DNA of 4,823 bases from the IMG/VR virus record IMGVR_UViG_2703718815_000008, one strand, 5' to 3'. The notes below the pieces were generated by a model. The model was not told the origin of the DNA and did no database searches. It saw only the letters and a program-made list of their open reading frames with translations. Position numbers and translations under genes: made by a program. This document shows positions 1 through 4,685 of the stretch, one piece after another. The stretch is from a virus. Its lineage: Duplodnaviria > Heunggongvirae > Uroviricota > Caudoviricetes. The stretch's first letter is position 1. Each line of letters opens with the position of its first letter.

Positions 1-61
1 CACCTTCGGGTGGCACGAAAACTGCTGTAATGCAATGAAAAATAATGGATTATTTTTCGCG

Positions 62-90
62 TTGTCCACATATTGCCATAGTGATCTAAT
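62..90 (+). promoter_or_regulatory. Candidate sigma70 promoter for the DUF4177/yidD-like pair (TTGTCC-N17-TCTAAT)
   Basis: Seen in sequence: -35-like TTGTCC (62-67), 17-nt spacer, -10-like TCTAAT (85-90), about 70 nt upstream of the first start codon. The -35 also resembles a DnaA-box (TTGTCCACA vs TTATCCACA). No experimental support. Confidence 0.3.
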
Positions 91-160
91 GCTCGCATCG
101 TGAGGTGCGGGCTGTTTTAGGGCGTTTATTACTGTCTTTTTTATTAAAGGAGCTCAGGTA

Positions 161-403
161 ATGTATACCTATAAAATGATTCAGGTGCCGCCGAATATTT
201 CTGTAAAGGCAAAAGATAATAAAGCGGGGGTAGCTGCTGCATATCTTCAGAATGTTGTTAATGAACAGGCGGCGGATGGCTGGGAATTTCAACGGGTTGA
301 TACGATTGGTATAGAAGAGCAGCCGGGGTGTTTCGGTGGCGGAAAGGCGCAGTTTTTTCAATACTATGTGATTACTTTTAGAAAAAAAGTATCAGATGCT
401 TAA
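161..403 (+). CDS. Small cytoplasmic protein, DUF4177-like (80 aa)
   Basis: ORF with strong RBS AAAGGAG 8 nt upstream of ATG. N-terminal M-Y-x-Y-K and central GWEF...V motif match my recollection of the DUF4177 family. Stop overlaps the start of the next gene by 8 nt (translational coupling). Confidence 0.65.
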   Translation: MYTYKMIQVPPNISVKAKDNKAGVAAAYLQNVVNEQAADGWEFQRVDTIGIEEQPGCFGGGKAQFFQYYVITFRKKVSDA

Positions 404-629
404 ATGGCTTAGTATACGTCTGATTCTTTATTATCGTGCTCATGCGCCAGCCAGCATTCGTAACAGATGTCGTTATACTCCAAGCTGTTCGGCTTACACT
501 TTGGTGTCAATAAGGCGCTATGGCTTTTTTGAAGGCTGGCGATTAGGATTGAGCCGGATTTATCGCTGTCGTCCGCCTAATGGTGGTGCAGATTACCCTC
601 CTCATATTTGTAAATGTCGCAAATCGTGA
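396..629 (+). CDS. yidD: YidD-family protein (membrane protein insertion efficiency factor-like), stand-alone paralog
   Basis: 77-aa ORF carrying the YidD/haemolytic-domain signature: CRYTPSCSAY ... G...GW.LG..RI.RC.P..GGxDxPP. Not in the canonical rnpA-yidD-yidC context; here coupled to a DUF4177-like gene. Confidence 0.85.
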   Translation: MLKWLSIRLILYYRAHAPASIRNRCRYTPSCSAYTLVSIRRYGFFEGWRLGLSRIYRCRPPNGGADYPPHICKCRKS

Positions 630-640
630 GCGCGTAAGAA

Positions 641-680
641 AAAGAAAACCCGCAGTTTTTACGCTGCGGGTTTCTGCTTT
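641..680. terminator. Bidirectional rho-independent terminator shared by the yidD-like operon (+) and the hok mRNA (-)
   Basis: Stem CCCGCAG (649-655) / CTGCGGG (664-670) with 8-nt loop, flanked by an A-tract (641-648) and a T-rich tract (671-680), so it gives a U-tail on either strand. Confidence 0.7.
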
Positions 681-726
681 GGGATGTGTATAGGGTGCCT
701 TATCGGCCTTACCCTGGCAACCGATT

Positions 727-750
727 GACGGGGAAGTTGCCTTCCCCGTC
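727..750. other. Perfect 10-bp stem / 4-nt loop hairpin in the hok 3' UTR (probable mRNA-stabilising or fbi-region stem-loop)
   Basis: GACGGGGAAG-ttgc-CTTCCCCGTC, perfectly complementary arms, immediately downstream of the hok stop codon on the - strand. On the + strand it is followed by GCGGTTTTCTT, so it could also act as a + strand terminator. Confidence 0.5.
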
Positions 751-759
751 GCGGTTTTC

Positions 760-900
760 TTACTGTCTACATTGTAAGAACGCCGCAAACTCCGCTCCCC
801 AGAAGCTCATCCGTATCTCACACAGTGAACCGTGTAGCATCCAGATGATGAGGATTGCCGTTACGCAGAACGTAATGGCCGTAAGCGATTTTTGCGACAT
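760..900 (-). CDS. hok: Hok/Gef-family type I toxin (46 aa), absent from the ORF track because it is under the length cut-off
   Basis: Reverse-complement translation: MSQKSLTAITFCVTAILIIWMLHGSLCEIRMSFWGAEFAAFLQCRQ. One N-terminal transmembrane segment followed by SLCEIR and E.AAF motifs, as in Hok of plasmid R1 (..SLCEIRYRDGHREVAAF..) and E. coli HokA/HokC. SD-like AAGGAG about 8 nt upstream. Confidence 0.85.
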   Translation of the reverse strand: MSQKSLTAITFCVTAILIIWMLHGSLCEIRMSFWGAEFAAFLQCRQ

Positions 901-1003
901 AGCGCTTGCTCCTTTTTCGGGGAGGCGCTAACCTACGACTTGCGAAGGTTGTATGGCTAGGGCCTCGGGTTAACGTTAAAGTTGACTCGGGGCCTTTCCA
1001 CAT
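818..1003 (-). CDS. mok: mok-like overlapping reading frame (modulation of killing) of the hok locus
   Basis: 61-codon frame starting at ATG 1003 and overlapping the first 83 nt of hok in a different frame, as in mok/hok of R1. Its start lies upstream of the conserved leader hairpin, unlike R1, so the exact start is uncertain. Confidence 0.4.
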   Translation of the reverse strand: MWKGPESTLTLTRGPSHTTFASRRLAPPRKRSKRYVAKIAYGHYVLRNGNPHHLDATRFTV

Positions 1004-1008
1004 TCGGC
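941..1008 (+). ncRNA. sok: Predicted Sok-like antisense RNA (about 65 nt)
   Basis: Inference by analogy to R1 Sok. Candidate + strand promoter TTGCTC (906-911)-N17-TAACCT (929-934), TSS near 941. Imperfect hairpin 961-994 (GGCCTCGGG...CTCGGGGCC) followed by a U-rich stretch (995-1004). Antisense to the hok leader and mok start. Boundaries approximate. Confidence 0.3.
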
Positions 1009-1053
1009 CTTCGGGTATTCCCTCCAGCCATCAGCCGAAAGGCACCCGCGCGA

Positions 1054-1083
1054 ATTCTAGCCTGGTTTTTTCCCTTGTTTCAA
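1054..1083 (-). promoter_or_regulatory. Predicted hok promoter (TTGAAA-N18-TAGAAT on the - strand)
   Basis: -35 TTGAAA (rc of 1078-1083), -10 TAGAAT (rc of 1054-1059), giving a TSS near 1048. The predicted 5' end GGGUGCC (rc of 1041-1047) is perfectly complementary to GGCACCC (rc of 693-699) in the 3' UTR, matching the tac/fbi end-pairing typical of hok mRNAs. Predicted mRNA about 400 nt, as for R1 hok. Confidence 0.45.
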
Positions 1084-1087
1084 TCCG

Positions 1088-1117
1088 TTGAGACTTATCA
1101 GCCTTCTGATGTAAAAT
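1088..1117 (+). promoter_or_regulatory. Candidate + strand promoter divergent from the hok promoter (TTGAGA-N18-TAAAAT)
   Basis: -35 TTGAGA (1088-1093), -10 TAAAAT (1112-1117) with TG immediately upstream. Would give a transcript of about 64 nt ending at the 1164-1187 terminator. Confidence 0.3.
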
Positions 1118-1163
1118 TCCCGACCGCAGACATTATTCAGTCACGCATTTGATACATGCTTCC

Positions 1164-1187
1164 GCCGGCGTTCGCGCCGGTTTTTTT
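1164..1187 (+). terminator. Rho-independent terminator (+ strand)
   Basis: GC-rich stem GCCGGCG (1164-1170) / CGCCGGC with loop TTCG, followed by T7 (1181-1187). On the - strand there is no U-tract after the stem, so it is oriented for + strand transcripts. Confidence 0.6.
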
Positions 1188-1355
1188 CGTCCTGTTGCTG
1201 CATAGATCGTCATGCGCGATCGAGGCGCGGTATTGATCCTTTTTTCAGTTTAATTTTGACTCTCAATTTTACGCAGGCCGCGCCGCGTCTGGCTTCGTTG
1301 TTTGACGATTTTTTGATGCGATCCTTTCGTGATCGTTTCCCGTCTCGCGTAAAGT

Positions 1356-1451
1356 ATGAAAACTCTTTTAATATCATGCGGTTTTATTGCCCCTGCCATT
1401 TATGCGATCGTAAAAACCACTCTGAAAACTGCAAAAAATTTCAAAGCGTGA
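1356..1451 (+). CDS. Hypothetical 31-aa hydrophobic peptide (speculative small membrane protein or type I toxin-like ORF)
   Basis: ATG...TGA frame translating to MKTLLISCGFIAPAIYAIVKTTLKTAKNFKA: a hydrophobic core plus a Lys-rich C-terminal tail. Weak or absent SD and rare codons (ATA, TTA). The 3' end overlaps a perfect palindrome. May be non-coding. Confidence 0.15.
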   Translation: MKTLLISCGFIAPAIYAIVKTTLKTAKNFKA

Positions 1452-1563
1452 AATTTCAGATCTCCGCTTTTCCCTCAGTTGCTGCGCGGGCTGGCGGTCA
1501 GTTTTGCACGGCAGAAAACTGAAAAAGTGTTTCGACACAAAACCCGCGGGTTGGAGGGGGTAG

Positions 1564-1613
1564 CGCGGTTTACGTCACCTCACACTTTACGTCACACCGT
1601 TTACGCGGTGTGT
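1564..1613. repeat. Iteron-like direct repeats (TTTACGTCAC x2 plus TTTACGCGG) with an embedded 7-bp inverted repeat
   Basis: Seen in sequence: TTTACGTCAC at 1569-1578 and 1586-1595, TTTACGCGG at 1600-1608 (spacings 17 and 14 bp). Inverted repeat CACACCG (1593-1599) / CGGTGTG (1607-1613). Function unknown. Confidence 0.5.
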
Positions 1614-1665
1614 GCATACAGCGCCGGAATGGCACGCAGAACGCATTAATCAGGTGGTGGATATG

Positions 1666-1692
1666 AAAAACGCACGGTCGGAACCGTGCGTT
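1666..1692 (-). terminator. Rho-independent terminator of the - strand operon (downstream of the 565-aa gene)
   Basis: Stem AACGCACGG (1669-1677) / CCGTGCGTT (1684-1692) with loop TCGGAA. On the - strand the stem is followed by a U5 tract (complement of A1666-1670), about 40 nt after the stop codon at 1731-1733. Confidence 0.55.
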
Positions 1693-1730
1693 GTTTGATG
1701 GGGCGTTTATGTGGGTTTTATGTCGGGAGC

Positions 1731-3428
1731 TCAGGCGATAAGGTCGCCGTATTTTTCGCGCAGGCTCGTAGCCTGCAGGGCATCTGCGGCAAGTTCGCCG
1801 CTGTTCATTGGTGCGCCAGTGTTGTTGTGGGTGTGGTTTGCTGTGTGCGTGGCCAGCAATTGAATCAGATCCAGAATATCAATCAACAACGTCAGCAGAT
1901 TAAGTTCGGATTTTTCCCGTGAGCCACCGCGACCAATAAATACTGTCGGGGCTGTAAACTTCAGACCGCCGTCCGCCCGGCATGTTCTGCGGCCTCCCAC
2001 GTTTTCAGTCAGGTCCTGCTCAATTGTGGATATTGTCCCTTTGAGTTTAGTCAGCAAATCCTGCGCTACCATCTGGATATGCTCGCTGGCTGCGATCGCG
2101 TAATGGCCGGTAGTAAGGTGCTCTATTTGTCCTGCCGCCAGCTTGCTGGTTCCCAGAACACTGGTTATGTCGTTTGCCCGTACTGTGGTTGTTCTGGTTG
2201 TTGTGGTGCGCTCTTCTGCATCACTGTTAATTGTGCGGGTGGCTGACTGCTCCCTGATTTGCTGGTCTGTTTCTCTGTGCCAGCTTCCGTCAGTCGTGAC
2301 GCGCTGAAACACTTCTGCGCGCTGTTGCTGCAGTTGTTCGCCGGGCTTTACATCAGGCAGGTTATGGCCAGCAGGTAAGATTTGCCTGATAACAGGTTTA
2401 TCCGGGCGCCCTTCAATGTTAGATATTTCCACGATGGTGCCTGCCGGCGGGTAGGCAAAACATCCCGCCTCGCTACCAGCCATCGGGACGGGGAGTGGGA
2501 CTGCCGGGTAAACAGGCGTATCGCTTTTATCGTTGCCGTCCTCATCGAGCAGTTGCACGTCCACGGCGTAGCGTGGACGGAAGCTGTCGGCCACATCGCC
2601 CAGGGTGGCGGATTCCGTTGGTGCAATGACGCGCGCCAGCCTGGTGTGTAGTGTGCCGCTGGCCAGTTCCGGGAACTGTGTTTCCATCTGTCTGCGTAAT
2701 GGTGATTTGGAGACAGGGCTGCCCGTGACGGTAAGGCGCTCCCACGTCAGAGTCATTTTCTCGTTGTTGAGGGCTACGCGGGTAATACGCCCGGTGGGAA
2801 GATTCACGCCCGGTCGCACAGTTTCCATGAACATGATGTCGATGCTGTTTCCGCCGCTTTGCCCGAGAGCGTACTGTTGCGGAATATCCGGCATCGTAAT
2901 ACTGGCAAATCGTGAATCAGCGGCGCTTCCCACAAATACAGAACCGTCCGGCATTGGGTGCCAGACGTAATCGCTGATACTGAATGCGCGCCCCAGCTGG
3001 CTGAGTAGCTGCGTTCCGCTGCCGCTGTGGGTGATGTAGGGGGTTGGTGTGTTGACATAATCCGCGTCCGGGGTGATAAAAACGATGCCGCTTTGTCGTC
3101 CCAGATTATCTAACACCTCCCGCAACGTCGGGTGTTGCATGGAGCAGGGGAAATCAAAATCCAGCACAGCAGCTGCTTCACGGATAAAAAGGCGGCGCGA
3201 ACCATTTTCGGCGGGTTGGTCGCGTTCAACGTAGCCGGAGAAATAGCGCCAGACTTCACCGTCACGGCCGAGATCAATTTGTACCATTGCGCCGGCAAGG
3301 CTTTTTTCTGGTGACAGATTATTAACAGAAATGAAGCCACGACCGGCAGCATTCAGGGTAAGAACAAGGCTTATATCGGCAATTTCCACCCGTTCGCCAT
3401 TAATCATGCAGCGTTGTATCAATTTCAT
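1731..3428 (-). CDS. Hypothetical 565-aa protein; tentatively a phage-tail-like structural protein (baseplate hub/spike- or fibre-like), last gene of the operon
   Basis: Long ORF with strong RBS GAGGAAGGG and an ATGA start/stop overlap with the upstream gene. No Walker A motif, no signal peptide. Thr-rich tract TTTTRTTTV and His-rich C-terminal segment LIQLLATHTANHTHNNTG (HxH-type motifs occur at metal-binding tips of trimeric phage spikes and fibres). An N-terminal segment, FSGYVE...TLREVLDNL...GIVF, loosely resembles gpD/gp27/VgrG hub motifs. Product is inference only. Confidence 0.8.
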   Translation of the reverse strand: MKLIQRCMINGERVEIADISLVLTLNAAGRGFISVNNLSPEKSLAGAMVQIDLGRDGEVWRYFSGYVERDQPAENGSRRLFIREAAAVLDFDFPCSMQHPTLREVLDNLGRQSGIVFITPDADYVNTPTPYITHSGSGTQLLSQLGRAFSISDYVWHPMPDGSVFVGSAADSRFASITMPDIPQQYALGQSGGNSIDIMFMETVRPGVNLPTGRITRVALNNEKMTLTWERLTVTGSPVSKSPLRRQMETQFPELASGTLHTRLARVIAPTESATLGDVADSFRPRYAVDVQLLDEDGNDKSDTPVYPAVPLPVPMAGSEAGCFAYPPAGTIVEISNIEGRPDKPVIRQILPAGHNLPDVKPGEQLQQQRAEVFQRVTTDGSWHRETDQQIREQSATRTINSDAEERTTTTRTTTVRANDITSVLGTSKLAAGQIEHLTTGHYAIAASEHIQMVAQDLLTKLKGTISTIEQDLTENVGGRRTCRADGGLKFTAPTVFIGRGGSREKSELNLLTLLIDILDLIQLLATHTANHTHNNTGAPMNSGELAADALQATSLREKYGDLIA

Positions 3429-4000
3429 GTTTTCCCTTCCTCTTTCACGCTCCCGATGCCAACAGCATCCAGACCAGAGCCAACGGCATCATTGATTTTT
3501 TTCCAGAACGAACTTTGCGTATTCATGCCTTTGTCTGGTGCCTGTTCGCTACCGTTCTGGGTCTGCTGTCTGGCGATGGTTTTCTGCGAACCGCTGCGTG
3601 CGGATGCTTTCTCTGGCACGCTTAATTTTTCCCTGAGAGTAAAGGTAACCTGCCAGTGCATTTTTCCCTGTTGTTCCGTGGCATCAATGCCACCAGAAAA
3701 TACCCCCTGTCGCATATTGATTGCCTTCGCGGTAGCGTTAGCAATGCGATATGTTTTTTTAGCACCGTTGCTTTCTGTTGCCTCCGCAAGCTGAAAAATA
3801 CGGGTCAGAATAGCTTCATCATTAAAATCAATAACCCCCGACACGCGCAGCTCTTTAGCCTTGTTTCCCTGCTGGGCGCTCGTGGTGCTGGTTGACTGTC
3901 CGGACATATCTTTGTCCGGTAGTTGCATGGTGGCGCTGACGGTGATGTTGCGCAGCAGAATGGCTTCCCCGTCAAGCGCAAGGACAATCATCTGGGTCAT
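3425..4000 (-). CDS. Hypothetical 191-aa protein (Ser/Thr/Gln/Gly-rich; possibly a phage-tail-associated structural protein)
   Basis: ORF with excellent RBS AAGGGAGG 7 nt upstream of ATG 4000. Stop overlaps the start of the 565-aa gene (ATGA). No signal peptide, transmembrane segment or nucleotide-binding motif. Product unknown. Confidence 0.75.
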   Translation of the reverse strand: MTQMIVLALDGEAILLRNITVSATMQLPDKDMSGQSTSTTSAQQGNKAKELRVSGVIDFNDEAILTRIFQLAEATESNGAKKTYRIANATAKAINMRQGVFSGGIDATEQQGKMHWQVTFTLREKLSVPEKASARSGSQKTIARQQTQNGSEQAPDKGMNTQSSFWKKINDAVGSGLDAVGIGSVKEEGKT

Positions 4001-4685
4001 GTAGTGCCTCCCTTAGTGATGAGAGATTATCGCCGACGAACAGCATCACAGCTGTAAAAACCCACTCGGGGTGTGGGATGTTTTTTTGTATCAGCACTGC
4101 AGCCTGGCTAAGGGCTCCCTTGTAGCAAAAGCGCCACACCGGGCAAAATTTTTGCCGGAGTGCAGCCTGCTGATCAGCGATTTCCTGTAAGGCTTTATCT
4201 CTCGCATTCATGAACTGATGCAGTGATGATGACAATGTTTCCGGTGATGTGGCGGCAGGAGTGGCTGCCTGTGCAATGGTTGCCGCCAGCGACATGCTGC
4301 GAGTGGTCTGTGTCGACAGCATTATCGGTTCCGGAAGTGATGTTGCCGGTCTGGCGGGGATTTGCATTCTGCTGATGGCCAGTGAAAGCTGGCTGGAGAT
4401 CATGCGGGACATTCGTCCCACCTCCGGCAACGGAAATGCGCCTGAAAATTGCCTGGCGAGTGATAAAAACTCGCCAGCAGAAGGAGCGCAAAATAACAGC
4501 GCCACAATGTCCTTTTCTGTGTTTTCTTTCAGATAGGGTAAAAGTGCAGATACAGCATTTTCGGGGCTGAGATAACGCCCCGATGGTTTGATGTTTCCGG
4601 TATTTTCTGACCATGGATGCAGGCAAACCACAGAGCATTTAATGTTCATGGCTGACGGGCGCAGAATTGCCTTTTCCCATTTCAT
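3972..4685 (-). CDS. Hypothetical 237-aa protein with two domains joined by a low-complexity Ala/Thr/Ser/Pro linker
   Basis: ORF with RBS GGAGAG. Start overlaps the stop of the upstream gene (ATGA) and the 3' end overlaps the 191-aa gene by 29 nt in another frame. No recognisable catalytic motif. Product unknown. Confidence 0.7.
   Translation of the reverse strand: MKWEKAILRPSAMNIKCSVVCLHPWSENTGNIKPSGRYLSPENAVSALLPYLKENTEKDIVALLFCAPSAGEFLSLARQFSGAFPLPEVGRMSRMISSQLSLAISRMQIPARPATSLPEPIMLSTQTTRSMSLAATIAQAATPAATSPETLSSSLHQFMNARDKALQEIADQQAALRQKFCPVWRFCYKGALSQAAVLIQKNIPHPEWVFTAVMLFVGDNLSSLREALHDPDDCPCA

What the first reader, a model, noticed from the sequence alone, without database searches (positions are those of the whole stretch)
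161..629. Stand-alone YidD paralog translationally coupled to a DUF4177-like gene
YidD normally sits in the rnpA-yidD-yidC operon. Here a clear YidD-signature protein (CRYTPSCSAY...RC.P..GG) forms an 8-nt-overlapping two-gene unit with a small DUF4177-like protein, convergent with the hok locus. A second, accessory YidD paired with a small partner may have a specialised role, for example insertion of a particular small membrane protein, possibly the neighbouring Hok-like peptide or products of the adjacent island.
Basis: partly seen in the sequence, partly recalled or inferred. Interest (0 to 1): 0.4.

Follow-up and report, generated by a model that had tools for sequence, protein, structure and literature searches.

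The report
Phage-borne YidD paralog with DUF4177 partner
Two small overlapping genes at the end of an E. coli prophage encode a second, accessory copy of the membrane-insertion helper YidD and a small partner protein. The same pair travels as a fixed unit through many bacteria and P2/HP1-type phages, its function is untested, and it is not tied to the neighbouring Hok toxin.

Summary
ORFs 161-403 (80 aa) and 396-629 (77 aa) overlap by 8 nt. The second is a clear YidD-family protein. The first is a divergent DUF4177 protein, just under Pfam's cutoff, although all 25 relatives tested hit only that family.

The pair is an accessory second copy. Canonical rnpA-yidD-yidC is present in 5425 of 5426 complete E. 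coli genomes, and this pair in only 20. It lies inside an att-bounded prophage, in a cargo slot that holds other genes in sister prophages.

The main result is that the pair is a conserved, mobile two-gene module:
- A YidD paralog directly follows the DUF4177-like gene in 62 of 80 species loci and 51 of 55 viral contigs.
- Conversely, 79 of 80 YidD-type viral loci have the partner directly upstream.
- No other neighbour is conserved.
- Both genes are under strong purifying selection, and their divergence is correlated.

Phage HP1 carries the pair as orf3-orf2, inside its cI-int lysogeny operon.

The proposed Hok link is not supported: hok is adjacent in 2 of 55 viral loci and 0 of 80 genome loci.

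Function remains unknown. The best guess is a lysogen-expressed heterocomplex acting at the inner membrane.

The parts
1..14 (.). Probable att core (CACCTTCGGGTGGC), the prophage boundary next to host ytfP
   Evidence: An exact 14-nt repeat lies between ppa and the integrase at the other end of the homologous prophage in E. coli PEC148. The phage P88 genome record begins at window position 15. ytfP lies immediately upstream in all genomes that encode the identical YidD.
15..81 (.). Conserved prophage end, shared with sister prophages that carry different cargo
   Evidence: Window 1-81 matches E. coli Ec-U9-2 at 98.8%. There the slot holds a BRCT-domain gene instead of the pair.
82..638 (+). 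Variable cargo cassette holding the two-gene module
   Evidence: E. coli matches to the rest of the window start at about 626-645 and lack this stretch. Only 20 of 5426 genomes carry it. Its GC is 43.5%, against 53% for the phage genes.
91..112 (+). Terminator-like hairpin upstream of the operon, which could insulate it from ytfP read-through
   Evidence: Consensus scan only. Function not shown.
147..153 (+). Shine-Dalgarno sequence AAAGGAG, ending 7 nt before the ATG at 161
   Evidence: Read directly from the sequence. It is conserved in P88 and PEC148.
161..403 (+). DUF4177-family small soluble protein (80 aa), the partner gene
   Evidence: PF13783 at 22.1 bits (cutoff 25). phrog_12383 at 138 bits. 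25 of 25 relatives hit DUF4177. The AF2 model has pLDDT 86 with a strand-helix-strand-strand fold. dN/dS is 0.07.
396..403 (+). 8-nt overlap ATGCTTAA (start of the YidD gene, stop of the partner gene), indicating translational coupling
   Evidence: Junctions in other species overlap by 8, 4 or 1 nt, or leave a gap of 0-3 nt.
396..629 (+). Short, very basic YidD-family paralog (77 aa, pI 10.4)
   Evidence: PF01809 at 64.4 bits and TIGR00278 at 67.3 bits. C25, P29, C31, S32, G43, R54, C58 and G64 are invariant, including in K-12 YidD. It is 35% identical to K-12 YidD. dN/dS is 0.10.
645..674 (.). GC-rich hairpin between the convergent YidD and hok genes, probably a shared bidirectional terminator
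   Evidence: Terminator-like site on the minus strand. The sequence has A/T runs on both sides. It is conserved in P88 and PEC148.
760..900 (-). hok-family toxin gene (context, not part of the module)
   Evidence: PF01848 at 30 bits. phrog_251 at 79 bits.
887..1047 (-). sok / hok-leader RNA region (context)
   Evidence: Rfam RF01794 at 36.7 bits, E 8.8e-6, below the gathering score of 59.
1731..4685 (-). Phage baseplate genes (565-aa Vgr-like baseplate protein, HP1 ORF34-type protein, 237-aa protein). They show that the window is a prophage end.
   Evidence: phrog_2258 at 773 bits, PF25759 at 182 bits, phrog_31292. Tail-fibre and baseplate J genes follow in genomes with the identical YidD.

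Best explanation
The locus is a real two-gene operon. It encodes a small soluble DUF4177-family protein and, translationally coupled to it, a short and highly basic paralog of YidD.

The pair is a self-contained, horizontally mobile module. Here it is cargo in the att-proximal slot of an E. coli P2/HP1-family prophage. In phage HP1 it is orf3-orf2, inside the cI-int lysogeny operon. In some genera, such as Enterobacter and Yersinia, it is fixed at chromosomal sites.

Most likely (inferred, not shown) the two proteins act together as a complex at the cytoplasmic face of the inner membrane. The complex would be an accessory, lysogen-expressed variant of the YidD activity that assists YidC/Sec-dependent membrane-protein insertion.

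It adds to, and does not replace, the housekeeping yidD. It has no specific link to the neighbouring hok.
For: Shown:
- Both ORFs and the 8-nt overlap exist. YidD scores are well above the curated cutoffs. The partner belongs to DUF4177 at family level.
- Obligate pairing. A YidD-like ORF lies directly downstream in 62 of 80 species loci and 51 of 55 viral contigs. The reciprocal figure is 79 of 80. One variant has the gene order swapped but stays adjacent.
- There are no conserved neighbours.
- The two proteins' distance matrices correlate (r 0.62; 0 of 2000 permutations reach it).
- Selection is purifying (dN/dS 0.07 and 0.10). Pair GC tracks host GC (r 0.85).
- It is an accessory copy. Canonical yidD is in 5425 of 5426 E. 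coli genomes, and the pair is in 20.
- It is inside the prophage, as shown by the att core repeat and the P88 record boundary. Other cargo fills the same slot elsewhere.
- HP1 orf3 and orf2 sit in the PL operon cI-orf4-orf3-orf2-orf1-int. A repressor lies directly upstream on the same strand in many viral contigs.

Against: - No functional data exist for this paralog or for any DUF4177 protein.
- The paralog differs from canonical YidD. It has a PNGG loop one residue shorter than HPxGG, lacks the N-terminal extension, and carries about twice the positive charge. Its activity may therefore differ.
- The AF2 model of the paralog is low confidence (pLDDT 60.5), so the amphipathic membrane helix is unverified.
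- No promoter-like site was found upstream in the window, so expression in this lysogen is not established.
- The DUF4177-like gene also occurs alone in 18 of 80 loci, mostly Acidobacteriota, Chloroflexota and Calditrichia. It therefore does not strictly need a YidD partner.
- Complex formation is inferred only from linkage and co-evolution.
Confidence: 0.55

Rival explanations
1. Toxin-antitoxin or abortive-infection-type module. The basic, membrane-active YidD-like protein is a toxin or effector, and the upstream DUF4177-like protein is its antidote or sensor. Prophages carry it for addiction or for defence against other phages.
For: - It consists of two small, translationally coupled genes of about 80 and 70 aa.
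- It is mobile and has no fixed neighbourhood.
- It sits in a swappable prophage cargo slot next to hok/sok.
- Some neighbours elsewhere are defence- or TA-like: AAA_21/AbiEii, AAA_15, HicB-like, PBECR2.
- COG0759 (YidD) ranks among the most widely transferred gene groups (PMC6287321).
- From my own knowledge: PF01809 was formerly named 'haemolytic domain'.
- One DUF4177 protein was reported as bacteriocin-like (PMC11322243).
Against: - Neither protein has a PADLOC hit.
- The upstream protein has no DNA-binding domain, and Foldseek finds no informative match.
- Conservation is unusually high for conflict systems. Mean identity is 63% and 53% across phyla, and GC is ameliorated to each host.
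- The pair sits at stable chromosomal sites in Enterobacter and Yersinia.
- In Pantoea conspicua, Pseudomonas aylmerensis and a Halomonas the upstream gene carries stop codons while the YidD ORF stays intact. That is hard to reconcile with an essential antidote.
Confidence: 0.15
2. Superinfection-exclusion or lysogenic-conversion factor. It remodels the host insertion machinery, or the membrane, to block incoming phages or to alter envelope proteins. This would be a phage-specific function and not a general cellular one.
For: - In HP1 and in many viral contigs the pair lies in the repressor operon, which is expressed in lysogens.
- It lies within a few kb of the att site in P88-type prophages and in HP1, and near the contig end in many IMG/VR contigs.
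- From my own knowledge: filamentous-phage coat proteins are classic YidC substrates.
Against: - Most species-level occurrences show no P2/HP1 phage genes within 6 kb. Only 8 of 80 do.
- Several occurrences are fixed chromosomal loci.
- Strong cross-phylum conservation fits a housekeeping-type target interaction but does not show exclusion.
- No experimental data exist.
Confidence: 0.15
3. Cysteine- or metal-based small enzyme or cofactor-handling pair, unrelated to membrane insertion. The three invariant Cys of the YidD fold would bind a metal or carry out thiol chemistry on, or together with, the DUF4177 protein.
For: - C25, C31 and C58 are invariant in all 43 aligned sequences, including canonical YidD.
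- In one Chloroflexota locus without YidD, a CxxCxGxG zinc-finger mini-protein follows the DUF4177-like gene.
Against: - That locus is a single anecdote. Other loci without YidD show no consistent Cys-rich partner.
- The DUF4177-like protein has no invariant Cys across the family.
- No redox or metal genes recur nearby.
Confidence: 0.08

Closest known systems
Housekeeping YidD of E. coli (b4557; rpmH-rnpA-yidD-yidC operon), 'membrane protein insertion efficiency factor'
   Same: - It belongs to the same Pfam and NCBIfam family, with scores above cutoff.
- It has the same invariant residues (three Cys, P, S, G, R, G).
- It is a small basic protein with a hydrophobic N-terminal helix.
   Different: - Only 35% identical.
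- Not in the rnpA-yidC operon.
- Shorter, with a PNGG loop in place of HPxGG, and about +12.6 net charge against +5.8.
- Always paired with a DUF4177-like gene in phage contigs.
- Mobile and rare: 20 of 5426 E. coli genomes.
Haemophilus phage HP1 orf3-orf2 (hypothetical proteins in the PL lysogeny operon)
   Same: - It is the same two-gene module: orf3 is 56.6% and orf2 47.1% identical to the window proteins.
- It has the same domains.
- The order and tight spacing are the same.
- It is a Peduoviridae-type temperate phage.
   Different: - In HP1 the pair lies between cI and int, inside the PL operon.
- Here it lies at the opposite prophage end, beside hok and the tail genes. It becomes colinear with the repressor-int unit only across attP in the circular form (inferred).
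- No function is annotated for HP1 orf2 or orf3, and the papers searched assign none.
Escherichia phage P88 (Xuanwuvirus) gp53 and the adjacent unannotated ORF
   Same: - About 88% nucleotide identity over window 15-1059.
- The arrangement is the same: pair, terminator, hok.
   Different: - The P88 record has a 1-nt insertion in a T-run that frameshifts the YidD gene, which is unannotated there.
- In P88 the pair is followed by ogr and gene D, not by HP1-ORF34-type baseplate genes.
DUF4177 (PF13783) small proteins, e.g. PEG 446 of Clostridium tyrobutyricum
   Same: - The predicted fold is the same: one helix and three strands (PMC11322243).
- It has an N-terminal YxYK strand and a GWE(F/L) motif.
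   Different: - This subfamily scores just below the Pfam cutoff.
- It is exceptionally conserved, at 51-86% identity across phyla.
- It is linked to a YidD paralog.
- PEG 446 was reported as bacteriocin-like. Nothing here suggests secretion.
Prophage morons / cargo hotspots of P2-like phages
   Same: - It is att-bounded and variable between sister prophages.
- Its GC is atypical for the prophage.
- It ends in its own terminator.
   Different: - The slot (att site to hok/ogr) is not among the hotspot positions that I read in PMC13586616.
- The cargo is not a recognised defence system.
- The cargo is also common outside phages.

Membership tests
YidD (PF01809 / TIGR00278) | Profile score above the curated cutoff | tested here: met
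   64.4 bits against 27 (Pfam). 67.3 bits against 40 (NCBIfam equivalog).
YidD (PF01809 / TIGR00278) | Three conserved cysteines and the CxxxP(S/T)CSxY ... RC..P..GG motifs in a 60-90 aa protein | tested here: met
   C25, P29, C31, S32, G43, R54, C58 and G64 are invariant across 41 paralogs, K-12 YidD and a canonical-type homolog.
YidD (PF01809 / TIGR00278) | Housekeeping context rpmH-rnpA-yidD-yidC | tested here: not met
   Here the order is ytfP | att | DUF4177-like | YidD | hok | phage genes. The canonical copy exists separately in 5425 of 5426 E. coli genomes.
YidD (PF01809 / TIGR00278) | Membrane association through an N-terminal amphipathic helix | tested here: inconclusive
   AF2 predicts helix 4-16, but the model is low confidence (pLDDT 60.5). 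The hydrophobic-moment scan did not flag the N-terminal segment.
YidD (PF01809 / TIGR00278) | Improves insertion of YidC/Sec-dependent membrane proteins | not testable with these tools
   Needs genetics and biochemistry.
DUF4177 (PF13783) | Profile score above the gathering cutoff | tested here: inconclusive
   The window protein scores 22.1 bits against 25 (E 1.9e-4). 25 of 25 relatives hit only DUF4177 at E<0.01, best 3.1e-6. Several cluster representatives carry a precomputed PF13783 hit. RefSeq names the E. coli homolog a DUF4177 domain-containing protein.
DUF4177 (PF13783) | Small strand-helix-strand-strand fold | tested here: met
   AF2 gives pLDDT 86 with E2-8, H24-38, E42-53 and E64-76. 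This matches the fold described for DUF4177 proteins in PMC11322243.
Type II toxin-antitoxin / anti-phage defence system | Match to known TA or defence profiles, or an antitoxin with a DNA-binding domain | tested here: not met
   No PADLOC hit. Only DUF4177 and YidD are found in Pfam. No informative structural match.
Type II toxin-antitoxin / anti-phage defence system | Two small co-transcribed, overlapping genes on mobile DNA | tested here: met
Type II toxin-antitoxin / anti-phage defence system | The toxin is never kept intact without its antidote | tested here: not met
   The upstream gene carries stop codons while the YidD ORF is intact in L009, L074 and L012.
Prophage moron / lysogenic-conversion cargo | Lies inside the att-bounded prophage, and the phage genome contains it | tested here: met
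   There is a 14-nt att core repeat. The P88 and HP1 genome records contain the pair.
Prophage moron / lysogenic-conversion cargo | Variable presence among closely related prophages | tested here: met
   The same slot holds a BRCT-domain gene or DUF4875. A TM2-domain gene is annotated under the match in ETEC strains. The pair is in 20 of 5426 genomes.
Prophage moron / lysogenic-conversion cargo | Expressed in the lysogen | not testable with these tools
   In HP1 the pair lies in the annotated PL (cI-int) operon. In this window no promoter-like site was found. RNA data are needed.

The most novel reading that the evidence does not exclude
The DUF4177-like protein and the short YidD paralog form a previously unrecognised two-component system, spread by P2/HP1-family temperate phages. 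Expressed from the lysogeny operon, it would re-tune the host YidC/Sec insertion pathway, or the ribosome-membrane interface. The effect could be to favour the lysogen or to exclude competing phages whose proteins need that pathway. If so, the partner gives the first genetic and biochemical handle on what the YidD fold does.
Probability: 0.12. Interest if true: 0.75.

Novelty: new variant of a known kind. Interest (0 to 1): 0.5.

Why it matters
YidD is nearly universal in bacteria, yet its mechanism is poorly understood. It rests on one study of a mild phenotype.

This work points to a distinct, mobile YidD subfamily that almost always travels with one dedicated soluble partner. That subfamily sits in the lysogeny operon of the classical phage HP1. 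Together these facts give a tractable system:
- two small genes;
- phage and lysogen genetics;
- natural pseudogenes of either partner.

It may also help explain an earlier, unexplained observation that COG0759 (YidD) is among the most widely horizontally transferred gene groups (PMC6287321). It assigns a family identity to HP1 orf2 and orf3 and to phrog_12383. It also removes a tempting but unsupported link to the Hok toxin.

Tried and rejected
- Hok dependence: rejected. hok is adjacent in 2 of 55 viral and 0 of 80 genome loci.
- Conserved third gene: none found. All-against-all clustering of flanking ORFs and Pfam scans of 135 flanking proteins show no recurrent family.
- Structure-based function for the DUF4177-like protein: the AF2 model is good (pLDDT 86), but Foldseek against the PDB gave no hit with E<0.03 or TM>0.46. 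PDB sequence searches were empty.
- YidD paralog structure: only a shallow alignment was allowed. The model has pLDDT 60.5, so no fold search was run.
- Defence annotation: no PADLOC hits.
- Rfam: only the sok-like match. Nothing lies in 1-640.
- Promoter scan: no sigma-70-like site upstream of 161 on the plus strand.
- Alternative partner where YidD is absent: no consistent gene.
- Literature: seven papers mention DUF4177 and none links it to YidD. Twelve papers hold both 'YidD' and 'prophage'; none of the 11 listed looks relevant, and the two opened did not link them. Yu et al. 2011 could not be retrieved.
- The search of protein representatives was not used. The family is so conserved that representatives clustered at 50% identity would collapse it.

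Full report
**1. The observation**

The window has two plus-strand ORFs, 161..403 (80 aa) and 396..629 (77 aa). They overlap by 8 nt (ATGCTTAA).

The 77-aa product scores 64.4 bits on Pfam YidD (cutoff 27) and 67.3 bits on the NCBIfam equivalog TIGR00278 (cutoff 40).

The 80-aa product hits only DUF4177, at 22.1 bits and E 1.9e-4. That is just under the gathering score of 25. It also matches phrog_12383 (unknown function) at 138 bits. When 25 relatives were scanned one by one, all 25 hit DUF4177 and no other family (best E 3.1e-6). RefSeq names the E. coli homolog a DUF4177 domain-containing protein.

hok (760-900, minus strand) is convergent with the pair, and a sok-like RNA match follows it. 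A GC-rich hairpin at 645-674 lies between the convergent genes.

Against the E. coli PEC148 copy, substitutions are mostly synonymous. dN/dS is 0.07 for the first gene and 0.10 for the second. Both are therefore real, selected genes.

**2. Where the window sits**

Genomes that encode the identical YidD protein all show tamA-tamB-ytfP, then the pair, hok and phage baseplate and tail-fibre genes.

Window 1-14 (CACCTTCGGGTGGC) is repeated exactly between ppa and the integrase at the far end of the homologous prophage in E. coli PEC148. The genome record of phage P88 begins at window position 15 and contains the pair. The pair is therefore inside an att-bounded prophage of the P2/HP1 family (Peduoviridae).

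Window 1-81 and the stretch from about 639 onward are shared with sister prophages that hold other cargo between them:
- a BRCT-domain gene;
- a DUF4875 gene at a different integration site;
- a TM2-domain gene annotated under the match in ETEC strains.

Only 20 of 5426 complete E. coli genomes carry the pair. Its GC is 43.5%, against about 53% for the phage genes. It is swappable prophage cargo.

**3. It is a second copy**

K-12 has yidD in rpmH-rnpA-yidD-yidC. That gene is present once, at 99% identity or more, in 5425 of 5426 complete E. coli genomes. The window protein is 35% identical to it.

The paralog keeps every residue that is invariant across the family: C25, P29, C31, S32, G43, R54, C58 and G64. 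It differs in three ways:
- it lacks the N-terminal extension;
- it has a PNGG loop one residue shorter than the canonical HPxGG, and the typical paralog ends right after D-x-P, whereas the window copy and its closest enterobacterial relatives carry a short extra C-terminal tail;
- it is much more basic, with pI 10.4 and about +12.6 net charge, against +5.8.

**4. The pair is a conserved, mobile module**

This is the main finding.

*Forward test.* A pattern scan of one genome per species, using the DUF4177-like alignment, gave 141 confirmed loci. Eighty were retrieved, from Enterobacterales, Pseudomonas, Paraburkholderia, Pasteurellaceae, Vibrio, Halomonas, Bdellovibrionota, Desulfovibrionales, Acidobacteriota, Chloroflexota and others. 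A YidD-like ORF lies immediately downstream in 62 of the 80. The junction overlaps by 8, 4 or 1 nt, or has a gap of 0-3 nt. In IMG/VR viral contigs the figure is 51 of 55.

*Reciprocal test.* Of 80 viral contigs found with a YidD-paralog pattern, 79 have a DUF4177-like gene directly upstream. The one exception starts at the contig end. One divergent variant has the two genes in swapped order but still adjacent.

*Nothing else is conserved.* Clustering of flanking ORFs finds no recurrent neighbour beyond genus-level synteny. The 135 flanking proteins fall into 104 Pfam families, none with more than three members.

*The two genes evolve together.* Their pairwise-distance matrices correlate (r 0.62; 0 of 2000 permutations reach it). 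Pair GC tracks host GC from 30% to 64% (r 0.85). Mean protein identity nevertheless stays at 63% and 53%. That pattern indicates long residence under strong constraint, not one recent sweep.

*Either partner can decay.* Stop codons interrupt the DUF4177-like gene in a Pantoea, a Pseudomonas and a Halomonas. The YidD gene is broken in two Paraburkholderia and in the P88 record.

**5. Contexts**

Chromosomal and apparently fixed:
- Enterobacter cloacae complex, between yegQ and yegS;
- Yersinia pseudotuberculosis complex, between nemA and gloA.

Phage:
- The classical Haemophilus phage HP1 carries the pair as orf3 (DUF4177, 23.7 bits) and orf2 (YidD, 72.9 bits). They are tightly packed in the annotated leftward PL operon cI-orf4-orf3-orf2-orf1-int.
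- A Vreelandella P2-like prophage has the pair downstream of an S24-type repressor.
- Many viral contigs have either an HP1-type cI or an S24-type repressor directly upstream on the same strand, often with the integrase downstream.
- Eight of 80 species loci have P2/HP1 homologs within 6 kb.

In P88-type E. coli prophages the pair is at the opposite prophage end. Joining the ends at attP gives repressor, int, attP, DUF4177-like, YidD on one strand. That is colinear with the HP1 arrangement. Once integrated, the pair instead lies downstream of host ytfP in the same orientation (inferred). No sigma-70-like site was found upstream in the window, and a terminator-like hairpin lies at 91-112. Expression in this particular lysogen is therefore open.

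**6. The Hok idea**

hok is adjacent to the pair in 2 of 55 viral loci and 0 of 80 species loci. The linkage is limited to the E. coli P88-type lineage and is incidental.

**7. Mechanism**

*Shown:* it is a real operon, an obligately linked pair, mobile, selected, prophage-borne, and an accessory copy.

*Inferred:* the two proteins form a complex. This rests on translational coupling, co-evolution and adjacency that survives an order swap. The complex would act where YidD acts, at the cytoplasmic face of the inner membrane near the YidC/Sec insertion site. In phages it would be expressed with the lysogeny genes. I put about 0.9 on the anatomical part and about 0.3 on the insertion-helper mechanism.

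*The DUF4177-like protein* models confidently as a small strand-helix-strand-strand domain (pLDDT 86). It has no informative structural neighbour in the PDB.

*Rivals:*
- A toxin-antitoxin or abortive-infection reading fits the architecture and the cargo slot. Against it are the absence of defence-profile hits, the extreme conservation, and three species where the upstream gene is broken while the YidD ORF stays intact.
- A phage-specific exclusion role fits the lysogeny-operon position. It does not fit the many non-phage, fixed chromosomal copies.
- A cysteine/metal-chemistry reading rests only on the three invariant Cys.

**8. Comparison and novelty**

Both proteins belong to named families, and RefSeq already labels them. 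I found no paper that links DUF4177 with YidD, or YidD with prophages. HP1 orf2 and orf3 are annotated as hypothetical.

A 2018 survey noted, without explanation, that COG0759 (YidD) is among the most widely transferred gene groups (PMC6287321). A mobile paralog module like this one could contribute to that signal.

I classify the locus as a new variant of a known kind: a distinct YidD subfamily with a dedicated partner. Interest is moderate at 0.5. The association is robust and gives a handle on a poorly understood protein, but the function is untested.

Noticed in passing
window 760-1047 (minus strand): A hok-family toxin gene (46 aa) with a sok-like RNA or leader match (Rfam RF01794, 36.7 bits, below the gathering score of 59). 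A fold-back-type hairpin lies at 726-751. The same hok block recurs in about 1600 E. coli genomes and in many Stx and P2-like phages.
   Followed up: partly
window 1-14; L104 8982-8995: A 14-nt exact repeat (CACCTTCGGGTGGC) at both prophage ends is the probable att core of P88-type prophages integrated between ppa and ytfP. K-12 has chpSB at that position (from my own knowledge).
   Followed up: partly
L001 (phage P88, NC_026014), about locus 470-480; alignment A3 column 385: The P88 genome record has one extra T in a T7 run inside the YidD gene. This frameshifts the gene and probably explains why it is unannotated there. It could be a sequencing error or a real pseudogene.
   Followed up: partly
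window 1050-1730: About 680 bp between hok/sok and the baseplate operon have no convincing ORF. In P88-type prophages ogr and gene D sit at this position. Here hok abuts an HP1-ORF34-type baseplate module, so the prophage end is mosaic. A hairpin at about 1676-1700 looks like the terminator of the minus-strand tail operon.
   Followed up: no
window 1731-3428 (minus strand): The 565-aa baseplate protein (phrog_2258, 773 bits) has only weak, sub-threshold similarity to the VgrG / Phage_base_V OB domain. RefSeq labels its homolog 'type VI secretion system Vgr family protein', which is probably a misleading name for a phage spike or baseplate protein.
   Followed up: no
L090 6145-7350; L003 7206-7946: The same prophage-end slot carries a 401-aa BRCT-domain protein in E. 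coli Ec-U9-2 and a DUF4875 protein in E. coli AJ1. ETEC strains have a TM2-domain protein annotated under the match. This is an uncharacterised cargo hotspot between the att site and hok.
   Followed up: partly
L234 2974-3493: A divergent viral-contig variant has the gene order reversed, with the YidD-like gene first and the DUF4177-like gene second, and a longer DUF4177-like protein.
   Followed up: no
L013, L015, L035 (Budvicia aquatica); L051-L057, L066, L070-L080: DUF4177-like genes 51-60% identical to the window protein occur without any YidD within 6 kb. Budvicia has three copies, each followed by a membrane protein of about 140 aa. The others are in Acidobacteriota, Chloroflexota, Calditrichia and Bipolaricaulota. 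One Chloroflexota copy is followed by a CxxCxGxG zinc-finger mini-protein.
   Followed up: partly
L238 1698-2315 and 2767-3060 (HP1 orf1, orf4): HP1 orf1 (205 aa, with a hydrophobic N-terminus) and orf4 flank the pair in the PL operon. They have no significant Pfam hit. orf1 homologs accompany the pair in many HP1-like contigs.
   Followed up: partly
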